A stretch of 64,000 nucleotides of DNA from assembly GCA_035714745.1 (NCBI GenBank), contig DASTLR010000008.1, positions 7,394 through 71,393 of the forward strand. The letters are read 5' to 3'. The notes beneath the pieces were generated by a model. It did no database searches, was not told the DNA's origin, and saw only the letters and a list, made by a program, of their open reading frames with translations. Shown here one piece after another: positions 42,244 to 63,052 of the stretch. Each line of letters begins with the position of its first letter. The stretch's first letter is position 1. Source of the DNA: Minisyncoccota bacterium (GTDB lineage Bacteria; Patescibacteriota; Minisyncoccia; Phycocordibacterales; UBA6065). The position numbers and the translations under genes are program-made.

Positions 42244-42316
42244 CCGCCCATAGCTCAGTCGGTAGAGCAGCTCCCTTTTAAGGAGAGGGTCCCAGGTTCG
42301 ATTCCTGGTGGGCGGA
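42244..42316 (+). tRNA. tRNA-Lys (anticodon UUU)
   Basis: Cloverleaf folded by hand: acceptor CCGCCCA/TGGGCGG, D arm GCTC-AGTCGGTA-GAGC, anticodon loop CUUUUAA, T loop TTCGATT. No encoded CCA. Confidence 0.8.
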
Positions 42317-42329
42317 CTAAGTGTTCCCT

Positions 42330-53824: not shown

Positions 53825-53897
53825 TGGTGCCTATAGTTTAGTGGTAAAACTCCGGATTGTGGTCCCGGCATTGTGGGTTCGATTCCCACTAGGCACC
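53825..53897 (+). tRNA. tRNA-His (anticodon GUG) with a G(-1) extra base; boundary of the AT-rich island
   Basis: G-1 plus acceptor GTGCCTA/TAGGCAC, anticodon loop UUGUGGU, T loop TTCGATT and discriminator C. Confidence 0.75.
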
Positions 53898-55490
53898 CCT
53901 TAAGTCTGTTATTCCGATAGTCTCTCGGAAAGCAGGACTCTTTTCTGCAAAAGCCTTTTCCATTGGGAAAGGTTTTTGCTTGTTATTGAGGCAAAGCGTA
54001 CCAGTGGCAATCAACGCCTCCATAATTGGGCTAGGGACAGCTTTAGCGATCTTGCGGTCAGATACCTCAAATCTCTCCCAAAATATGCTCAAGTACGTCC
54101 TTTTAAGCTCTGGAGAAGCCTGTTGGTAAGCCTCGCCTAGGTTTCGAGCAAGAAGTATTACCTTCTGAATTACATCAACTTTGATGTTCTTATTGGCATC
54201 GAGCTTGGCGAGTTCGCTTCCACAAGAAACTATTATCTCCCTTTGTCTTTCTTTGATTCGAGTGAAGTCGTTATCATCAAGTACGCCAGAGATAAGCTTT
54301 TCCTCAGCGAGCTGGAGTTTTGATTCGGCGGCAGACTTAGTCGCCAGAATCTTTCGCTTCTCACGTTCCGTATCCTGCTTTTTCAGTGAATAGATGAACT
54401 TGACCCTCTCAAGCAGACGCTCAATGAACTTCTCAGAGAACTGAATTCCTCGAAAGTGTTCGACTACCTGATCTTCGAGGTCTTTTACGTTAACTCCTCG
54501 ATCGTTATCTGGAATAACGAATGGTTTCTGTTTATTCGTTGCATAAGGACGATAGTAGCTTTTATCCTTTTTCTTCTCATGGTTCTCGCCTATGAATCTC
54601 AAACCGCTTATAGCTGAGAACACATAGCCACGAAGAAGGAAATCATATTTTCGCCTCCGGCAGACACCATGACCATTATTCAATCGAACTTGTCGGCATC
54701 TTTCAAAGACTTCCTGAGATGTGAGAGGCGTGTGTTTACCCATTTTTCTCATTTCACCCCAGACCATTTCTCCATGGTAAAAAGGGTTTGCAATAATCTT
54801 AAACATATTCGCCAGACCGAGCTTTCCTCCCGTGTGTGATGTAAGTCCTTTCTTGAAAATCCATTCTCGCAATTCGAGCATTGGATGGTTACCCGTAGCG
54901 TACTTTCGGAAAAGTTCTGTAACAACCGGACCTTTTATTGGATCAACGACGATAATGCGTTTATCGGGATTATTTTCTTCGCCGACATTGAGATAACCAA
55001 GCGTAGCTCGCGTAGGCCACCAGCCGTCATTAAACCGCTGTTGCATGCTCTTCTTGGTCTTACGAGACGTTATCTGTGATTGAAGCTGATTAACGCCTGC
55101 AATGATCGTATCCATGAAGTTTCCCTCTGGAGTATCTTCAATTCCTGGCTGGGAGATAGAAACGAGCGTCGCAGAGTATTTCTTCAGAAGTGCCTTTATG
55201 GTGGTGTGATCGTTCACGTTGCGGGCAAGCCTGTCGGTATCGAGTACGAAGACCGCCCTGATATCTTTCTCTTGCACACGAACGAGCATATCCTGAAGAG
55301 CGGGACGATTCATTGTTGTAGCTGACTTACCAGCATCTACGAAGACCCCATTGTCCGTCAGTTCGTATTTACCGCTTTCTGTAATTGTTTTCTTACAGAG
55401 ATCCTCCTGTGTAGCAAGCGAATAACGCCCGCCCTTTGCCTGCTCCTCTGTGGAGACACGGCAATATATAACTGCTTTATCTTTGGTCAT
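53889..55490 (-). CDS. Large serine recombinase (resolvase/invertase N-terminal domain, recombinase domain and zinc ribbon)
   Basis: AVIYCRVSTEEQ with the catalytic Ser, resolvase domain motifs and a long C-terminal recombinase region. Its 3' end overlaps the tRNA-His 3' end by about 9 nt. Confidence 0.85.
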   Translation of the reverse strand: MTKDKAVIYCRVSTEEQAKGGRYSLATQEDLCKKTITESGKYELTDNGVFVDAGKSATTMNRPALQDMLVRVQEKDIRAVFVLDTDRLARNVNDHTTIKALLKKYSATLVSISQPGIEDTPEGNFMDTIIAGVNQLQSQITSRKTKKSMQQRFNDGWWPTRATLGYLNVGEENNPDKRIIVVDPIKGPVVTELFRKYATGNHPMLELREWIFKKGLTSHTGGKLGLANMFKIIANPFYHGEMVWGEMRKMGKHTPLTSQEVFERCRQVRLNNGHGVCRRRKYDFLLRGYVFSAISGLRFIGENHEKKKDKSYYRPYATNKQKPFVIPDNDRGVNVKDLEDQVVEHFRGIQFSEKFIERLLERVKFIYSLKKQDTEREKRKILATKSAAESKLQLAEEKLISGVLDDNDFTRIKERQREIIVSCGSELAKLDANKNIKVDVIQKVILLARNLGEAYQQASPELKRTYLSIFWERFEVSDRKIAKAVPSPIMEALIATGTLCLNNKQKPFPMEKAFAEKSPAFRETIGITDLRGA

Positions 55491-55987
55491 TGTTTATAGA
55501 TGAACTCCATTGGGACGAATCCCTTCCGTGAAGTGAATTGCCCGTCGAGTATTCTGATCTCTCGTACTCCCAATGAAGAATTGCTAAGTACCAACACTTT
55601 CGTTCCCGCCTTAACAAAATAGGCTTCATTGTTGCCGATAAGCTCGATCAGTCCATCTGAATCGTTAGCGATTGCAGACTTTGAGTATTTATCAAATGCT
55701 TCCTTGGTTGAAGGAACCATGACTTCGTCTTTTCCTTCGATTCTGAGATAACCCTCTTCACCCACGCTTACTCGAGTAGAAGTTTGAGGAGTGGAGGTTA
55801 CTGCACGCTCACTTACATTGTTAGATGCCTTAGCGAGAGATATGGTTATAAATAAAAAGAAGATCAGTGCGACGACAGCAAGAGGATGCCTACGTGCCCA
55901 TGATCTTAAATCTGCCTTACAATTCGGACATCGTTTCGCTTTCTTAGGGATATCCGTCTGACACTCCTTACATTTTTTTGTTTCCAC
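55487..55987 (-). CDS. Hypothetical zinc-ribbon membrane protein, translationally coupled to the recombinase
   Basis: N-terminal CKECQ..CPNC zinc ribbon, a TM helix and an extracytoplasmic domain. The stop overlaps the recombinase start (ATGA). Confidence 0.4.
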   Translation of the reverse strand: METKKCKECQTDIPKKAKRCPNCKADLRSWARRHPLAVVALIFFLFITISLAKASNNVSERAVTSTPQTSTRVSVGEEGYLRIEGKDEVMVPSTKEAFDKYSKSAIANDSDGLIELIGNNEAYFVKAGTKVLVLSNSSLGVREIRILDGQFTSRKGFVPMEFIYKQ

Positions 55988-56256
55988 GTGATTAGAAATA
56001 AACGATTAATCCCGTGGAAAGCTCCCACACAAAAAACCTGCCACAGGTAGGAACCGAAGTCCCTCGTGAAGGTTTCCCCGCACGGCCAGTTAGACAACCC
56101 TATGACAGGCTCTTTATGTCTAACTGGACTTATAGCCATGCTCTGGAGAAAACTCCAGAGGTTAGGCTCATGAACGCTATTTAGTTGTAAGGTAATTATG
56201 CTCTTTTTCATCCTTTTTGCCAAAATGACTTTGAAACGCTGACGCCTATACGTTTT

Positions 56257-57059: not shown

Positions 57060-57752
57060 TTATAGTTTTCTACTCTTTATTTTGGCCATTATTTTTCTTG
57101 CCTGCGAGAGAGACACTCTCAAATGTCCGGCCATTTTTTCATCACCGCAATCAGGATTTGCCTTCAAAAACTCCTTGGCTTCCCATTCGAGGTTTTTTGT
57201 TTTTTCTTCTTTCGGTTTAACTTTTTTTGAGAGTGGATGCTTCGATGAAATTGAGTTCTTAAGACTCCTGTCGATTTCTGACCAATTGTCCTCAATGTAT
57301 TTAATGAGCTCAGGTTTGCTAGCCCCAGGTTCGACGTAGATTTCTGCGTAAGCGAAATTCTCGATGTCATCACCAGCATTTTTTATTTTATGAGAAACTC
57401 CCAAGGATGTATTCGAAATCCCTCCGAACAGGGTTTTTTCTACTATTGCCGCTACGACCAAGCCGTTATCAAAATTAAATTTTTTTGATACCGAATCATA
57501 CAACTCTGATTGTGCTTCCAGGAAAATCCTCTGAGTTTCTGGTTGGCGTATGGTATGACCTGCCAGTTTCATACCTCGCGTCAGTTTTATTTGTTCGATG
57601 TCGGAGAGCCATTTCCGAAACTCTTGAACAGTTTTAACCTCGTTTCTAAAAGGCAAAAAAGCTACCTTAAGTGCGTCTATGTCCTCATCCAGGTCGATTT
57701 TGAGCATCAATTTATCTACCCACTCTTCTAGTCTGTTGGCTGGTCTCTCCAT
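57060..57752 (-). CDS. Hypothetical protein with a possible C-terminal helix-turn-helix
   Basis: 230 aa. The C-terminal segment EKMAGHLRVSLSQARKIMAKIK resembles an HTH. Confidence 0.4.
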   Translation of the reverse strand: MERPANRLEEWVDKLMLKIDLDEDIDALKVAFLPFRNEVKTVQEFRKWLSDIEQIKLTRGMKLAGHTIRQPETQRIFLEAQSELYDSVSKKFNFDNGLVVAAIVEKTLFGGISNTSLGVSHKIKNAGDDIENFAYAEIYVEPGASKPELIKYIEDNWSEIDRSLKNSISSKHPLSKKVKPKEEKTKNLEWEAKEFLKANPDCGDEKMAGHLRVSLSQARKIMAKIKSRKL

Positions 57753-57805: not shown

Positions 57806-58942
57806 GTGGGTATGCCAGATATTCCCAAACAGTATTTTCTATACTATTTCCCTTACCTCACAATGAGAGATGTCGAGGAGATAGATTTTGGATTTATCAA
57901 GATTTGGAACTTTGATAAGAAGAAGGATGCTTATATCTCTGACCCTGCTCTTAAGGCAAAAATTACACAGATTCTTGCTAACTACCAATCCCAGTTTTAT
58001 CCAGTTAGAGGTATTGGAATAGCTTCTATTGGTACTAATGATTTTAGGAAATTTACACCTGAAGAGGCGGCGGATCTTCATACTGCAAAATACATTCTTT
58101 TCATTTCCGCTCTTGCATATAACAACCTCCATACTGCAAATGTAAATATCGGACACGCTATGTTTAGTTCGGAAAATTTCGAGAGCATGATATTTAGCAT
58201 GGTCTTAGACAGTGAGTACATGTCTGAACCTGGAGGATTCGTCATAAATATGCTTCATGGAGGTATTGAGATAAGTAAGAATCTCCAAAAGACACCCTCT
58301 TACATATTAAATCCGTCTCGCCTGAATTTAGATGTGGATTTGTTTAATACACTCATCAAACTAAGGAAGCGTAGGCCAAAATTCTTTAAAAGATTAATAT
58401 CGGCAATCGAAGTTTTCTATGAAAGCTATTACAATTCGCCTCAAGTCAGTGAAAAGGCACGTATCTTGCTCCTTACAAGTGCTTTTGAGATGCTTTTACA
58501 GTCTGAACCTGGGGCAGGCAGAGAAAAGACAAAAAACTTTATCGCTTTGCATGCTAACGTTCCCGAAGATCGAAAATATTCTTATTACTCCGAGAGAAGA
58601 GGTGGTGTAGTCAGGGAGAGCGGAACCCGAAAGGAAATATGGGCTGATAGGTTTTTTAGTCTTCGAAATCATATTGCTCACGGAGATATCGTTCCTAAGA
58701 CAGAATTTCTTTATAAGTCACAAAGGCACTTCGATATTGCCCCGCTATTCTTTGTCTTTACTCTTAAAAAGAAAATAGACCTGTATTTAAGGAGAGATAT
58801 CTTTGGTGACGAAATTGAGTGGAAGAAGTGGACAGATGAAAATACAATCCCTATTACGGAGTATGAGGGGTTTGCGTACAATGCAACTAAAGGGAAATTG
58901 AGAAAACTTTTTAATAAACTAAGAAAGAGGAAACGCCCATGA
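57806..58942 (+). CDS. HEPN-motif protein (Rx4H), putative abortive-infection or RNase-type defence protein
   Basis: LRNHIAHGD contains the R-x4-H HEPN catalytic motif in the C-terminal third. 378 aa with a basic tail. Confidence 0.45.
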   Translation: MGMPDIPKQYFLYYFPYLTMRDVEEIDFGFIKIWNFDKKKDAYISDPALKAKITQILANYQSQFYPVRGIGIASIGTNDFRKFTPEEAADLHTAKYILFISALAYNNLHTANVNIGHAMFSSENFESMIFSMVLDSEYMSEPGGFVINMLHGGIEISKNLQKTPSYILNPSRLNLDVDLFNTLIKLRKRRPKFFKRLISAIEVFYESYYNSPQVSEKARILLLTSAFEMLLQSEPGAGREKTKNFIALHANVPEDRKYSYYSERRGGVVRESGTRKEIWADRFFSLRNHIAHGDIVPKTEFLYKSQRHFDIAPLFFVFTLKKKIDLYLRRDIFGDEIEWKKWTDENTIPITEYEGFAYNATKGKLRKLFNKLRKRKRP

Positions 58943-59658
58943 AAAACCTACCCAAAGTAAAAAACAATTCCCAGACCGATCCCTTGGAGTCGGTTGAGTT
59001 ATCTGGAAAGCAAATAAAAGATGTCATTGAGTCCTCCGGAGTAAATCTAGTCGCCAGTTTTATTCCTGGACTTGGCAAGTTTCTTGAATGTATAGACTAT
59101 GCAAACCAAAAAATAAGAGAAGAGAAACTGAATAATGTATTAAAGATTTTCATATCTCATTTCGATTCATTGGATGAGGCTCTCGCTCAAATTAAGAAAC
59201 TCGTCAGCAATCGATCTGGAATTATTTTGTTTCAAAAAATAATACAGATCGTAGACAACGGGTCTTCTGATGATGAATGGTTAAACATACTAGCAAACAT
59301 ACTGAAAAACATAGCGGAGGAAGATATTACTAAACACTTTGATGAAAGGAGTTATTTTCTCGCACAAATTGATCGCCTAACACCACAGGCCTTGATTATT
59401 ATTAGTAAATACGACCTCTGGATGCAGGCTCATATCCAAGATACAACCACTACTAGCGGACAAACAGCCTCTGGTAATTGGAGTGAGCAAGTTACTGGTT
59501 TTCTCAAAACAAAAATTGGAATTTCTGATGGTCAGACTGGAGCTAGGATCAATCATTCCTTCCGTGAACTGGAATCGGCGGGGATGATTAAATTGGAAGG
59601 ACACCAAATCAGGCTCACCCCTGTTGGTAACGAGATTCGCCGAATGATGAAAAAATAA
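58939..59658 (+). CDS. Hypothetical protein, overlapping partner of the HEPN gene
   Basis: The start overlaps the HEPN gene stop (ATGA). No motif recognised. Confidence 0.4.
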   Translation: MKNLPKVKNNSQTDPLESVELSGKQIKDVIESSGVNLVASFIPGLGKFLECIDYANQKIREEKLNNVLKIFISHFDSLDEALAQIKKLVSNRSGIILFQKIIQIVDNGSSDDEWLNILANILKNIAEEDITKHFDERSYFLAQIDRLTPQALIIISKYDLWMQAHIQDTTTTSGQTASGNWSEQVTGFLKTKIGISDGQTGARINHSFRELESAGMIKLEGHQIRLTPVGNEIRRMMKK

Positions 59659-59663
59659 ATTCA

Positions 59664-60437
59664 ATGAAAGAAGGAACTTGTAAATTATGTCTGGAATACA
59701 AAAAGTTATGCAAAGAATCTCATATAATTCCGAAGTCTTTATATAGACTTCTAGCTGGAGAAAATAATCAACTGATATATATCAACGAGGAGAAATCGAA
59801 ACCTAAATACAATAGCGAATACGAAGGCGGTATTTTGTGTGAGAATTGCGATAACAAAGTGATTGGGTTACTTGATGACTATGCGGCAAAATTCATCTAC
59901 GGCGAGTTTCCAAATAAAGGGACTTCGGGGACGGAATGGATAGAAGGGCGTGAGACTGTAATTCGAGAAAACGATCCGAGTTACGATTATTCGCGTTTTA
60001 AACTATTTCTGCTTTCTGTTTTATGGAGAGCTAGTATCTCTTCGAGACCTTTCTTTCAAAAACTGAAGCTTCCTTCCGCCATAGAAGAAGATTTGAGGCA
60101 AAGAATCCTTACGGGTAGCCCAGGACAACCAGACGAATATCCATGTTTCATACACTTGCCCCCATTAATCACTCAACCGGACGGAAGGCGTGGTTTTGAG
60201 ACGTTCTACATGCAAACTATGTCTCCAATTTATATGGATAGGGGTGAGCTGAAAATGTGTGAGTTCATCATTCAAGGTATGCACTATTACTTCATAATTG
60301 CTCGTCCTGCGAACATGAATGTTCTTCCTTCGGTTGATACAAACAGACTAACCATGGCTTTTAGTAAGCCTGAGGAACATACCCAAATTATTCAAACCAT
60401 ACTCGATTTTATGAAGGGGCATCCTAAACGGAAATGA
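59664..60437 (+). CDS. HNH-like nuclease domain protein (CxxC..ESHIIP..CxxC N-terminus)
   Basis: GTCKLCLEYKKLCKESHIIPKS ... CENCDNK resembles an HNH zinc-finger nuclease core. Confidence 0.4.
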   Translation: MKEGTCKLCLEYKKLCKESHIIPKSLYRLLAGENNQLIYINEEKSKPKYNSEYEGGILCENCDNKVIGLLDDYAAKFIYGEFPNKGTSGTEWIEGRETVIRENDPSYDYSRFKLFLLSVLWRASISSRPFFQKLKLPSAIEEDLRQRILTGSPGQPDEYPCFIHLPPLITQPDGRRGFETFYMQTMSPIYMDRGELKMCEFIIQGMHYYFIIARPANMNVLPSVDTNRLTMAFSKPEEHTQIIQTILDFMKGHPKRK

Positions 60438-60487
60438 AACTAATGCACATTTGTTGACTATACCCCTAGGGGGTATATACTTTCGAC

Positions 60488-60757
60488 ATGACAAAAAATC
60501 CATCGAAAACAAAATTATCTCGTCGTCTCAAAATCGTTGAGGGTCAAATCAGAGGCCTTCAAGAGATGATCGAAAAGGACGCGTATTGTATAGACGTCAT
60601 CACCCAAACCTCGGCCGTGAAGCAAGCTCTCTCGGGTATTGAGGACGCTCTTATGGAACATCACCTCTCTACCTGTGCTGTAGATCAGATGCAGGGCGGC
60701 AAGTCTGAGAAAACTAAGCAAGAAATCCTTAAGGTCTATAGGCTTAAGCGAAAATAA
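60488..60757 (+). CDS. csoR: CsoR/RcnR-family metal-sensing transcriptional repressor
   Basis: RLKIVEGQIRGLQEMIEKDAYCIDVITQ...H...C, the CsoR Cys-His-Cys signature. Lies directly upstream of copA. Confidence 0.8.
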   Translation: MTKNPSKTKLSRRLKIVEGQIRGLQEMIEKDAYCIDVITQTSAVKQALSGIEDALMEHHLSTCAVDQMQGGKSEKTKQEILKVYRLKRK

Positions 60758-60760
60758 TCT

Positions 60761-63052
60761 ATGTATACCCAAACCTACAAAGTAAAAGGAATGCATTGTG
60801 CCTCATGTGCAGGCATAATCGAAAAAACCTTCAAAAAAACGGAGGGTGTGAAATCTGCTGAGGTAAATTACGGAACTGAGACTGCAAAAGTCGCTTTTGA
60901 TACTTCTAAAGTAAATCCACACCGCCTTTCAGAGAAAATCGAGAAATTGGGGTACTCTCTCGTCGTGCCTTCCGCAGAGGATATGAATATGTCGTCATCT
61001 GAACACGCGGCTCACCTAGGTCTCAACCAATCTAAAAAAGAAAAGCTTATTGAGATAAAAGATATGCAAAGCAAGGTCTTTTCCGTCATCCCACTCGCAG
61101 TCTTTAGTATCTTCGTCATGGGATGGGATATTCTCGCTCAGTTCGGCGTTCTGCCCGAAATGAGTCGAACGATATATGAGTTCTTCCACCACCTACTCCC
61201 AATATTCGCGACATACACTCTTTTCGTAGTCGGCAAGCCGTACCTTATGGGCATGTTCCGTTTCTTCCGCTATGGCAAGGCGAACATGGACACGCTCATA
61301 GGCATAGGAACGTCAGTGGCTTTTCTCTATAGCTTTATTGTTACTGCATTTGAAGAATCTCTCGCTCCATATATTAACGTTGAGCATAATTATTACGACG
61401 TAACGATTGTCGTCATCACATTCATTGCTCTCGGTAAATACCTTGAAGCCCGTGCAAAGGTGAAAACAGGCGATGCAATCGAAAAGCTTGTTGGCCTTCA
61501 GGCAAAGACCGCTTTGGTTATAAGGGACGGCAAGGAGCAAGAGATCGCCGTATCGGATGTAAGGCATGGAGACCTCATCATCGTAAAGCCAGGTGCAAAG
61601 ATCCCTGTAGATGGAGTTGTAGTTGAGGGTGCTTCATTTATAGATGAATCAATGATCACGGGTGAACCAATGCCCGTCGAGAAGAAAGTAGGAGATTCTG
61701 TCGTGGCGGGTACCATAAACACTAATAGCACTTTTACATTCAAGGCTACAAAAGTCGGTTCTGAAACGCTTATTGCTCATATCATAAAAATGGTAGAGGA
61801 AGCTCAGGGCAGTAAAGCTCCCATTCAAGCCCTCGCAGATAAAATATCGGCTGTATTCGTCCCCATAGTCCTCGTAGTCGCTTTTGTTACCCTTGGAGTG
61901 TGGTTACTTGTTGGAACAAGCTCTTTTGGTTTCTCTCAGGCTCTCTCATACGGATTAACTTCATTTGTAGGCATACTTGTCATCGCTTGCCCATGTGCCC
62001 TCGGCCTTGCCACTCCCACCGCAATCATCGTCGGCGTAGGTAAAGGTGCTAAGGAGGGCATCCTCATTAAGGACGCCGCTACGCTCGAAAAGCTCCACAA
62101 AGTTGATACCATCGTCGTAGATAAGACGGGTACGATCACCAGAGGCAAACCAGAACTTACGAGCATACAGAACCACTCAAAGCTTCCTGACGATAAGATC
62201 ATTTCTATCCTTACTTCTCTCGAAAGCAAATCGGAGCATCCTATAGCTCACGCTGTCATTGAATATGCCAAGGCTAAGTCTATTAGTCTCGTACCTGTTG
62301 AAAAACCAGAGATCATCAAGGGTAAAGGAATCAAAGGGACTATCTCGGGTACAGAATATTTCGCAGGCAACACGAGGCTTCTTTCCGATCTCGGCCTTTC
62401 GATCGATACCCAAAAGCTCGAGGTTGATACGAAAGAAGGAAAGACGCCTGTCATACTCTCAACCAAGAGCGAAATTCTAGCTGTCGTCATGGTCGCAGAT
62501 GCCGTGAAGAACGAAGCAGTGGAAGCAGTTAAGAGCCTTCACAAGCTTGGTATCAAAATCGTTATGCTCACGGGCGATAATAAACATACCGCTCAAGCTA
62601 TCGCAAAAGAGGTCGGCATTGATGATGTGGTCGCTGAAGTGTTGCCAGACGACAAACTTAATAAGATCAAAGAACTTCAAGAAGCGGGTCATATCGTAGC
62701 TATGGCGGGAGACGGCGTTAATGACGCTCCTGCTCTCGCTCAGGCGGATGTCGGCATTGCTATGGGCACAGGAACCGATGTCGCTATAGAGACCGCAGGC
62801 ATTACGCTTCTTCATGGAGATATTTCAAAGCTTGTGAAAGCAATACGGCTCTCGAAGTTAACAATGCGAGGCATCAAGCAGAATCTTTTCTGGGCGTTTA
62901 TCTATAACGTAGTCGGCATTCCTCTCGCCGCAGGATTATTCTTCCCATTCTTCGGGTGGCTTCTCAGTCCCGTATTCGCAGGTCTCGCTATGGCGTTCTC
63001 AAGCGTTTCAGTCGTTGGAAATTCGCTTCGCCTTAAAGCTAAAAACTTATAA
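60761..63052 (+). CDS. copA: Copper-translocating P1B-type ATPase
   Basis: N-terminal heavy-metal-associated (HMA) domain GMHCASCA, a TM CPC motif (ACPCALG), DKTGT phosphorylation site and GDGVNDAP. Confidence 0.9.

What the first reader, a model, noticed from the sequence alone, without database searches (positions are those of the whole stretch)
57806..60437. Candidate defence module on the island: a HEPN (Rx4H) protein with a translationally coupled partner, then an HNH-like nuclease
The 378 aa protein carries LRNHIAHGD, the catalytic R-x4-H HEPN motif seen in Abi and toxin RNases. Its stop overlaps the start of an uncharacterised 239 aa gene, a typical two-gene toxin-antitoxin or Abi layout. 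The next gene has a CxxC...ESHIIP...CxxC HNH-like core. None of the three matched a named family from my reading, so this may be an uncharacterised anti-phage or anti-MGE system carried by the island.
Basis: inference. Interest (0 to 1): 0.6.

Follow-up and report, generated by a model that had tools for sequence, protein, structure and literature searches.

The report
Three independent island cargo genes
The three tightly packed genes are real and one is a genuine HEPN-type RNase related to the known single-protein phage-defence factor ApeA, but they are three unrelated, separately mobile cargo genes of an integrative island, not a conserved three-gene defence system.

Summary
ORFs A (57806-58942, 378 aa), B (58939-59658, 239 aa) and C (59664-60437, 257 aa) exist. 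A and B overlap by ATGA. The LRNHIAHG and CxxC...SHIIP...CxxC motifs are present.

- **Island:** All three genes sit on a low-GC island with a large serine recombinase, integrated at tRNA-His.
- **Linkage:** It is not conserved. Across 53 loci (A in 20, B in 16, C in 17) no two families ever co-occur, by tblastn or profile HMM. In a close relative, B alone forms the low-GC islet at the same tRNA-His.
- **C:** The HNH call has no significant sequence or fold support.
- **B:** It has no recognisable family.

Most likely A acts alone, like ApeA, as an RNase coupled to its own sensor domain. B and C are orphan accessory genes with phage-borne relatives.

By-product: a LOOT RNA lies in this island and in six related loci, four of which also carry a large serine recombinase.

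The parts
53827..53899 (+). tRNA-His(GTG); the integration site and left boundary of the low-GC island
   Evidence: ARAGORN and Rfam tRNA at 62.4 bits. Synteny with L020-L022 runs up to this tRNA and stops. In those relatives the same tRNA is also followed by low-GC DNA carrying B.
53889..55490 (-). Large serine recombinase (533 aa), the island's integrase. Its 3' end overlaps the 3' end of tRNA-His.
   Evidence: Pfam Resolvase 2.3e-29 and Recombinase 2.7e-09. Homologous recombinases occur in several loci that carry A, B or C homologs.
55487..55987 (-). 166-aa protein with a zinc ribbon and a hydrophobic segment, upstream of the recombinase and overlapping it by 4 nt
   Evidence: Pfam DZR 2.6e-4, below the cutoff. 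phrog_14275 at 1.4e-08, function unknown.
56049..56168 (-). LOOT structured RNA (Rfam RF03000), part of the island backbone
   Evidence: 84.1 bits against a gathering score of 46.4, full length. Six more copies occur in loci fetched through A, B or C. 26 of 38 pairs show compensatory changes.
57060..57752 (-). 230-aa gene divergent from A. By eye its C-terminus looks like a helix-turn-helix. No homolog was found in any related locus.
   Evidence: ORF. No significant Pfam, NCBIfam or PHROG hit; the single PADLOC hit (Cas12a model, E 5.3e-4, 15.9 bits) is weak and partial and I take it to be chance. Absent from all fetched loci.
57806..58942 (+). Gene A: a single-protein Apea-like HEPN ribonuclease candidate. 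It has an N-terminal alpha/beta domain (about 1-175), a HEPN helical core (about 177-330) carrying R287-N-H-I-A-H292-G, and a C-terminal hairpin plus helix.
58939..59658 (+). Gene B: an orphan family of about 240-290 aa that occurs on its own. It has a conserved TTTTSGQT motif and a possible C-terminal winged helix. Function unknown.
   Evidence: 23 close homologs and 172 representative clusters. No Pfam, PADLOC or NCBIfam family. phrog_15873 at 7.5e-21. Only weak MarR-like hits, E 0.13-2. It is the sole low-GC gene at tRNA-His in L022.
59664..60437 (+). Gene C: an orphan family with an N-terminal Cys4 module plus invariant His (C6, C9, H20, C59, C62), a conserved FKLFLLSxLWRxSIS helix, and an alpha/beta body with no solved relative. 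The nuclease assignment is unproven.
60454..60481 (+). Sigma-70-like promoter match (TTGACT-16-TATACT) between C and the cop genes. It suggests A-B-C and csoR-copA are separate transcription units.
   Evidence: 10 of 12 matches, the joint-best score among the sites found. This is a consensus match only. Promoter-like sites are not enriched in the region (8 found, 17.8 expected).
60488..63052 (+). CsoR-type metal-sensing repressor (60488-60757) and copper P-type ATPase (60761-63052): further island cargo unrelated to A-C
   Evidence: Pfam Trns_repr_metal 1.2e-23. The ATPase is assigned from the translation (HMA domain with CxxC, CPC, DKTGT and GDGxND motifs, read by eye). GC is 0.44-0.46 against a backbone of about 0.6.

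Best explanation
The locus is the cargo region of an integrative island in a Candidatus Paceibacterota genome. The island carries a large serine recombinase and is inserted at tRNA-His. A, B and C are three evolutionarily independent genes, each individually mobile, that have ended up packed head to tail here and are probably co-transcribed. They do not form one system.

**Gene A.** A is a self-contained HEPN ribonuclease of the Apea-like family. Its C-terminal four-helix HEPN core carries the invariant R287-N-x3-H292 catalytic motif. I infer that two subunits dimerise through the HEPN cores to build a composite RNase site, as in other HEPN proteins. I also infer that the roughly 175-residue N-terminal alpha/beta domain keeps the enzyme off until it senses an infection-derived signal. 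A would then cleave tRNA or invader RNA, as shown for ApeA. It needs no antitoxin.

**Genes B and C.** These are orphan accessory genes with relatives in phages and prophages.
- B is a protein of unknown fold with a possible C-terminal winged helix (weak, non-significant hits only).
- C has a Cys4 zinc module with an invariant histidine, on a body with no known structural relative. It could be a nuclease, but that is unproven.

**Shown versus inferred.** Shown: the ORFs, motif conservation, the HEPN fold, the island, and the absence of conserved linkage. Inferred: RNase activity, the sensor role of the N-terminal domain, and a defence role for any of the three.
For: **HEPN identity of A**
- Invariant RNxxxHG plus E228, R219 and Y209-N210.
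- Pfam HEPN_Apea aligns residues 197-297 to profile positions 3-101.
- 9 of 30 family members match it, best E 7.8e-7. P0031 and P0033 carry PF18739 precomputed.
- Model pLDDT is 92. The motif lies at the end of helix 275-291, which is followed by helix 308-328.

**A works alone**
- No conserved neighbour in 20 loci.
- ApeA is a single-protein system with its active site on H3 and a ligand pocket between the N-terminal and HEPN domains (10.64898/2026.01.26.701840; 10.64898/2026.03.20.713152).

**Defence-type and mobile context**
- Around A: AAA_21 x4, N6_N4_Mtase x3, Resolvase x3, DUF4238 x2, AAA_15 x2, DUF4209 x2 and XhoI.
- Around C: HEPN_AbiU2, AAA_13, DUF4238, AAA_15/21, Gp49/HTH pairs, RVT_1 and prophage genes.

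**Independence of B**
- It is the sole low-GC islet 33 nt after tRNA-His in L022.
- It occurs in temperate Lactobacillaceae phages between the regulator and terminase genes.
- Other contexts are varied.

**Island**
-.
Against: - No A-family member hits any PADLOC model.
- A is about 200 residues shorter than the characterised ApeA proteins. Its N-terminal domain is mixed alpha/beta, whereas ApeA is described as predominantly helical. The sensor analogy is therefore an extrapolation.
- The ATGA overlap with a good Shine-Dalgarno sequence, and the lack of any terminator within A-B-C, mean the three are probably co-expressed here. A lineage-specific functional link cannot be excluded.
- No experimental data exist for any of the three families.
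- The context samples are MAG and metagenome fragments, and some are only 2-3 kb long.
Confidence: 0.6

Rival explanations
1. A and B form a two-gene toxin-antitoxin or Abi pair. A would be the HEPN toxin and B its translationally coupled antitoxin or regulator.
Against: - No A homolog in 20 loci has a B-like neighbour, and no B homolog in 16 or more loci has an A-like neighbour, by BLAST or profile HMM.
- B exists as a single-gene islet and as a solitary phage gene.
- B matched no Pfam family, MNT nucleotidyltransferase families included.
- Overlapping or nearly abutting unrelated genes are the norm in these genomes.
Confidence: 0.07
2. A-B-C is a newly assembled, lineage-specific three-component system. 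The genes cooperate in this genome even though the combination is not conserved elsewhere. For example, B could act as a DNA-binding sensor or regulator, with A as the RNase and C as the DNase effector.
For: Same strand, overlap or 5-nt spacing, no internal terminator, similar GC of 0.38-0.39, and a separate promoter-like site only after C.
Against: There is no co-occurrence anywhere else. Each family is widespread on its own. C's nuclease nature is unsupported. Similar GC is expected for any cargo from low-GC CPR donors; the other loci have GC of 0.34-0.45.
Confidence: 0.1
3. A is not an anti-phage gene. It would be an addiction or stabilisation toxin of the island, or an RNA-processing enzyme. 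The HEPN fold does not imply defence.
For: HEPN domains also occur in TA toxins and RNA-processing enzymes (PMC3710099). Serine recombinases recur next to A homologs. No PADLOC model matches.
Against: There is no conserved antitoxin partner. The closest domain family is that of ApeA, a validated defence protein. The neighbourhoods are rich in R-M and Abi-type genes.
Confidence: 0.15
4. C is a stand-alone HNH/EndoVII-type (beta-beta-alpha-metal) nuclease that acts as a defence or homing endonuclease. This is compatible with the best explanation for A and B.
For: - Invariant C6xxC9...H20...C59xxC62 with D/E at position 63 in most members.
- Single members give marginal hits to Endonuclease_7 (0.037) and HNH_5 (0.095).
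- Relatives occur in prophages and defence-island settings.
Against: - No significant Pfam, PADLOC or PDB-profile match for the protein or its family.
- hhalign of the N-terminal profile against T4 endonuclease VII gives 0.8% probability.
- About 39 residues separate the His from the second CxxC, far more than I recall for T4 endonuclease VII.
- The Asn after the second CxxC is not conserved.
Confidence: 0.25

Closest known systems
ApeA, the single-gene HEPN anti-phage system (Gao et al. 2020; mechanism in bioRxiv 10.64898/2026.01.26.701840 and 10.64898/2026.03.20.713152)
   Same: - The same HEPN subfamily at Pfam level (HEPN_Apea, PF18739).
- An Rx4H catalytic motif on the H3-equivalent helix.
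- A single protein with no conserved partner gene.
- A C-terminal HEPN domain preceded by an N-terminal region with no known homologs.
- Found in variable or defence-island contexts.
   Different: - A is 378 aa, against about 580 aa for ApeA.
- A has one roughly 175-aa mixed alpha/beta N-terminal domain, not separate N-terminal and Mid domains.
- The window protein is below the Pfam cutoff.
- No family member matches any PADLOC model.
- The family is concentrated in CPR/Patescibacteria, with scattered members in other phyla.
- Oligomeric state, ligand and RNA targets are unknown.
HepT/MNT (HEPN-MNT) type II/VII toxin-antitoxin systems
   Different: Those toxins are about 130-140 aa and always pair with an adjacent MNT nucleotidyltransferase. 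A has a large extra domain and no conserved neighbour. B matched no Pfam family, MNT families included.
HepS (Gifsy-1 prophage HEPN protein; PDB entry 9oik shows it bound to the phage lambda J tail tip) and AbiA (C-terminal HEPN)
   Different: They have different accessory domains; the AbiA entry is described as an abortive-infection DNA polymerase. There is no detectable sequence relationship to A.
HNH/endonuclease VII beta-beta-alpha-metal nucleases (compared with protein C)
   Same: A Cys4 pattern flanking a conserved His in an [S/D]HIIP-like motif.
   Different: No significant profile or fold match. The spacing is unusual. About 170 further residues have no known structural relative.
tRNA- or tmRNA-targeting integrative islands with large serine recombinases
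   Same: The recombinase gene abuts the 3' end of tRNA-His here and of tmRNA in L029. Cargo is low-GC and variable.
   Different: This island carries a LOOT RNA near the recombinase. As far as I know that has not been described.

Membership tests
HEPN superfamily | Conserved Rx4-6H motif | tested here: met
   R287 and H292, with N288 and G293, are invariant in 30 homologs at 33-50% identity.
HEPN superfamily | Four-helix up-down bundle core with the motif on the H3-equivalent helix | tested here: met
HEPN superfamily | Metal-independent RNase activity from a dimeric composite site | not testable with these tools
   This needs biochemistry or a multimer structure prediction.
Pfam PF18739 HEPN_Apea | Score at or above the gathering threshold (24.4 bits) | tested here: inconclusive
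   The window protein scores 16.7 bits, E 0.01. Of 30 family members, 9 match, best E 7.8e-7. Two (P0031, P0033) carry the precomputed assignment.
ApeA defence system | A single gene with no conserved partner | tested here: met
   No conserved neighbour in 20 loci.
ApeA defence system | ApeA-type N-terminal and Mid domains at about 580 aa, recognised by defence-finder models | tested here: not met
   A is 378 aa with one alpha/beta N-terminal domain. No PADLOC model, of ApeA or anything else, matches A or any of 30 relatives. That PADLOC-DB 2.0 contains an ApeA model is my own recollection.
ApeA defence system | Ligand-activated tRNA or phage-RNA cleavage that confers phage resistance | not testable with these tools
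   Experimental.
HEPN-MNT / two-gene TA or Abi pair (A+B) | A cognate partner conserved next to the toxin across genomes | tested here: not met
   A and B co-occur in none of the 53 fetched loci, which include 20 A loci and 16 B loci. B occurs alone at tRNA-His in L022.
Three-gene defence system (A+B+C) | Recurrent co-localisation of the components | tested here: not met
   No pairwise co-occurrence among 53 loci, by tblastn or profile HMM.
HNH / EndoVII nucleases (protein C) | A significant sequence-profile match to an HNH family | tested here: not met
   Pfam gives no hit for C. Among 38 members there are only single marginal hits, at 0.037 and 0.095. The PDB profile search gives none. hhalign against T4 EndoVII gives 0.8%.
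HNH / EndoVII nucleases (protein C) | Beta-beta-alpha-metal fold with a catalytic His and Zn-binding Cys4 | tested here: inconclusive
Genomic island (integrative element) | Insertion next to a tRNA, a recombinase, deviant composition, and a synteny break against relatives | tested here: met
   The right boundary lies beyond the window, and no att repeat was found.

The most novel reading that the evidence does not exclude
B and/or C are new single-gene immunity or superinfection-exclusion proteins. Together with the short Apea-like HEPN protein A, they would travel as interchangeable cargo on a previously unrecognised family of CPR/Patescibacteria integrative elements. These elements are marked by a LOOT RNA and, in most copies seen here, by a large serine recombinase. 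If so, LOOT would gain its first biological context (a regulator or structural RNA of a mobile element). CPR bacteria, thought to be poor in known defences, would be shown to have their own defence repertoire that current finders miss.
Probability: 0.2. Interest if true: 0.6.

Novelty: new variant of a known kind. Interest (0 to 1): 0.35.

Why it matters
**What the result corrects.** The proposed three-gene 'system' is an accidental neighbourhood. It should not enter a catalogue as a new multi-gene defence module.

**What remains of interest.**
- Protein A represents a compact family with an Apea-like HEPN domain and its own N-terminal domain. The family is centred on CPR/Patescibacteria, and PADLOC models miss it entirely. 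As I recall the literature, CPR genomes are reported to be poor in known defence systems, so divergent single-protein effectors like this may be part of the explanation. A different putative sensor domain on a known effector is also useful for understanding how HEPN RNases are switched on.
- B and C are well-conserved orphan families shared between CPR islands, other phyla and phages. They are reasonable candidates for functional screens.
- The LOOT RNA link gives a testable context for an orphan RNA family.

Tried and rejected
- **C related to DUF4238.** The SHIIPxFxYK motif resembles HYVPxFYLxxF, and a DUF4238 gene follows a C homolog in L033. hhalign gives 0.1% probability, so I rejected this.
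- **C as EndoVII/HNH by sequence.** An N-terminal profile against PDB sequences returned only a chance-level SENP7 match, E 0.015. hhalign against T4 EndoVII gave 0.8%.
- **B classification.**
  - Pfam scans of 22 close and 62 distant members found nothing.
  - A PDB profile search gave only MarR-like hits at E 0.13-2.
  - NCBIfam TscT at E 0.011 is far below its cutoff.
- **Searches that returned nothing or failed.**
  - A PADLOC scan of B and C family members gave isolated marginal hits only.
  - Plasmids (A) and phages (C) by tblastn gave no match.
- **Local features in the window.**
  - No att-like direct repeats for the island.
  - No tandem repeats or Rfam elements inside A-B-C that would suggest a type III antitoxin.
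- **Homology among the 240-255 aa genes next to LOOT.** Not detectable by BLASTP.
- **'Suppressor tRNA' at 42244-42317.** Re-reading it in canonical numbering gives tRNA-Lys(UUU), so it is probably an ARAGORN register shift.
Full report
**1. Observation**

- A's TGA stop overlaps B's ATG (ATGA), with a GAGG-type Shine-Dalgarno sequence upstream. B and C are 5 nt apart.
- A carries FFSLRNHIAHGD. C carries CKLC...KESHIIPK...CENC.
- Identical proteins are on record from a MAG named Candidatus Paceibacterota.

**2. The island**

- GC falls from about 0.60 to 0.38-0.46 at 53.9 kb and stays low to the end of the window.
- The break coincides with tRNA-His (53827-53899). Its 3' end is overlapped by the 3' end of a 533-aa large serine recombinase with Resolvase and Recombinase domains.
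- The backbone at 48.4-53.9 kb (RuvX, tRNA-binding protein, VTT, PilM, tRNAs, rplS, tRNA-Leu, tRNA-His) is syntenic with three related loci, L020-L022. Synteny stops at tRNA-His.
- Downstream of C, a promoter-like site precedes a CsoR-type repressor and a copper P-type ATPase. The 'island' part of the finding holds.
- The right end lies outside the window, and I found no att repeat.

**3. Protein A is a HEPN protein of the Apea-like family**

- In an alignment of 30 homologs (33-50% identity), R287, N288, H292 and G293 are invariant. So are E228, R219 and Y209-N210.
- The window protein matches Pfam HEPN_Apea below threshold: 16.7 bits against a cutoff of 24.4, residues 197-297 on profile positions 3-101. 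Nine of 30 relatives match it, best E 7.8e-7, and two carry the precomputed assignment.
- An AlphaFold model built from the family alignment is confident (pLDDT 92.1, pTM 0.91). It shows three parts:
  - an N-terminal alpha/beta domain (about 1-175);
  - a helical domain whose helices 191-207, 216-231, 275-291 and 308-328 form the candidate HEPN core, with the RNHIAH motif at the end of helix 275-291;
  - a C-terminal hairpin plus helix.
  - AbiA, Cas13b and three HepT toxins;
  - TTHA0636, 4nqf, AF0298 and HI0074;
  - HepS, at 17% identity over 121 residues.

**4. What is known about that family**

- ApeA/BMEI1217 was defined as a HEPN family with the Rx4H motif, sometimes embedded in R-M operons (PMC3710099).
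- ApeA is a validated single-gene defence system. Two 2026 preprints describe it (10.64898/2026.01.26.701840; 10.64898/2026.03.20.713152):
  - **Architecture:** it has N-terminal, Mid and split HEPN domains, with the active site on H3.
  - **Assembly:** it forms dimers that assemble into rings.
  - **Targets:** it cleaves tRNA anticodon loops or ssRNA-phage genomes.
  - **Activation:** it is switched on by a ligand bound in a pocket between the N-terminal and HEPN domains.
- Protein A shares the domain subfamily, the single-gene habit and the 'unknown N-terminal region plus C-terminal HEPN' plan.
- It differs in being about 200 residues shorter, with a different N-terminal domain. Neither it nor any of 30 relatives matches any PADLOC model.
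- I therefore treat it as working like ApeA, but not as a member of ApeA proper.

**5. The three genes are not a system**

- I collected 19 genome loci and one viral contig with A homologs. They come from Saccharibacteria, Paceibacterota, Roizmanbacteria, WWE3 and scattered non-CPR phyla.
- I collected 16 loci with B homologs and 17 with C homologs.
- Neither tblastn with the window proteins nor hmmsearch with family profiles over all ORFs finds any locus holding two of the three families.
- All-against-all clustering of genes within 4 kb of A homologs finds no conserved partner. Only serine recombinases and a few sporadic families recur.
- The clearest case is L022, a relative sharing the window's backbone. 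The B gene alone forms the low-GC islet (0.36 against 0.56-0.58), starting 33 nt after the same tRNA-His.
- In L020/L021, B again follows tRNA-His, with a different upstream ORF.
- Tight spacing is not informative here. In L020, 9 of 18 same-strand junctions between unrelated genes are overlaps or gaps of 16 nt or less.
- A, B and C are probably co-transcribed in this genome, since no terminator-like site lies inside them. That appears to be a local accident of cargo packing.

**6. Protein B**

- The family is compact and well conserved (TTTTSGQT, INHSFRELE).
- A profile search extends it to 172 representative clusters. Nearly all are 240-290 aa and cover the whole profile.
- No Pfam, NCBIfam or PADLOC family matches the window protein or its relatives.
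- The only hints are non-significant MarR/GntR-like winged-helix matches at the C-terminus, E 0.13-2.
- It belongs to phrog_15873, function unknown.
- Relatives sit in temperate Latilactobacillus and Lacticaseibacillus phages, between the regulator and the HNH/terminase genes. I regard that as a typical slot for accessory genes.
- Other contexts vary. One relative is next to a GmrSD_N+HNH gene.
- Function is unknown.

**7. Protein C**

- C6, C9, H20, C59 and C62 are invariant. S19, I21, P23 and a central helix (Y109, K113, F115, S118, W121, R122) are highly conserved.
- BFVD holds one full-length structural relative, an uncharacterised myovirus protein (E 2e-11, TM 0.66).
- Sequence profiles give no HNH or EndoVII support. 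There is no link to DUF4238.
- C homologs occur alone, often in defence-like or prophage settings:
  - next to HEPN_AbiU2;
  - between an AAA_13 ATPase and DUF4238;
  - beside AAA_15/21;
  - near Gp49/HTH pairs, an RT gene and methylases.
- A nuclease role is possible but unproven.

**8. Context of A homologs**

- Among 103 neighbouring proteins, the most frequent families are AAA_21 (4), N6_N4_Mtase (3), Resolvase/Recombinase (3), DUF4238 (2), AAA_15 (2) and DUF4209 (2), plus XhoI and a C5 methylase.
- This is the variable, defence-and-mobilome kind of neighbourhood expected for a defence gene, with no fixed operon.

**9. By-product: LOOT RNA**

- A full-length LOOT RNA (RF03000, 84 bits against a gathering score of 46) lies at 56049-56168 (-), between the 71-aa gene and the zinc-ribbon/recombinase genes.
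- Six more copies occur in loci that I had fetched through three unrelated proteins: L005, L009 and L013 via A, L023 via B, and L029 and L033 via C.
- Four of those six loci also carry a large serine recombinase. In L005, L023 and L029 it lies within about 1.5 kb of LOOT, and in L009 about 7.5 kb away.
- In L029 the recombinase abuts a tmRNA gene, just as the window's recombinase abuts tRNA-His.
- The seven copies show compensatory changes at 26 of 38 predicted pairs.
- This fits a shared element type with exchangeable cargo, which also explains why A, B and C meet here.

**10. Verdict**

- The HEPN and island parts of the interpretation are supported.
- The toxin-antitoxin and three-gene-module parts are not.
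- The HNH part is unproven.
- The best-supported mechanism is a stand-alone, ApeA-like, sensor-coupled HEPN RNase (A) sitting beside two unrelated orphan accessory genes.
- Novelty: a new variant of a known kind. Interest: moderate to low (0.35).

Noticed in passing
window 56049-56168 (-); also L005 7741-7856, L009 10050-10170, L013 2039-2161, L023 1837-1964, L029 3071-3192, L033 1436-1558: Full-length LOOT RNA (Rfam RF03000) at 66-90 bits against a gathering score of 46.4. It occurs in this island and in six loci fetched through three unrelated proteins. In the window and in L005, L023 and L029 it lies within about 1.5 kb of a large serine recombinase. Compensatory changes occur at 26 of 38 pairs. 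As I recall, LOOT was known only from unclassified metagenomic DNA and has no assigned function. Here it appears to be part of the backbone of CPR integrative elements.
   Followed up: partly
window 42244-42317 (+): ARAGORN calls a tRNA 'Stop' with anticodon TTA. Read in canonical numbering (8-nt D loop, 5-nt variable loop), the anticodon loop is C-U-UUU-A-A, which is tRNA-Lys(UUU). This is probably a one-base register shift rather than an ochre suppressor.
   Followed up: partly
L022 2518-3338; L021 5240-6735: In related Paceibacterota genomes, the B homolog (65% identity) lies immediately downstream of the same tRNA-His and is low-GC like the window's copy. There is no recombinase, A or C. 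The tRNA-His flank is therefore a recurrent hotspot, and B can be a one-gene islet.
   Followed up: yes
L029 105-2043: A C-homolog island whose large serine recombinase gene ends inside the 3' end of a tmRNA gene, next to smpB. This is the same geometry as recombinase and tRNA-His in the window. The island also carries an AAA_15/21 ATPase plus a 223-aa gene, and ThiF and JAB genes.
   Followed up: no
L005 11099-11340 (-): A group I intron (Rfam, 71.7 bits) directly after the serine recombinase gene of an island carrying an A homolog. It may lie within the element's target gene.
   Followed up: no
window 60488-63052 (+): A CsoR-type repressor and a copper-exporting P-type ATPase are carried on the same low-GC island, with their own promoter-like site at 60454-60481. 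The island thus mixes metal resistance with putative defence cargo.
   Followed up: no
L054 4872-5678 (OQ240259.1) and L055 4917-5777 (OP869845.1): Relatives of B (24-34% identity) are annotated as hypothetical proteins in temperate Latilactobacillus and Lacticaseibacillus phages. In the Latilactobacillus phage the gene lies just upstream of the annotated HNH and terminase genes, a typical position for accessory genes; the Lacticaseibacillus record annotates all neighbours as hypothetical.
   Followed up: partly
window 59700-59760 (protein C residues 13-32): The conserved 'LxxSHIIPxFxYKxL' segment of C gives a chance-level match (E 0.015) to 'ELVERSHIFSSFFYKCL' in human SENP7 structures 3eay and 7r2e. 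I take it to be coincidence.
   Followed up: no
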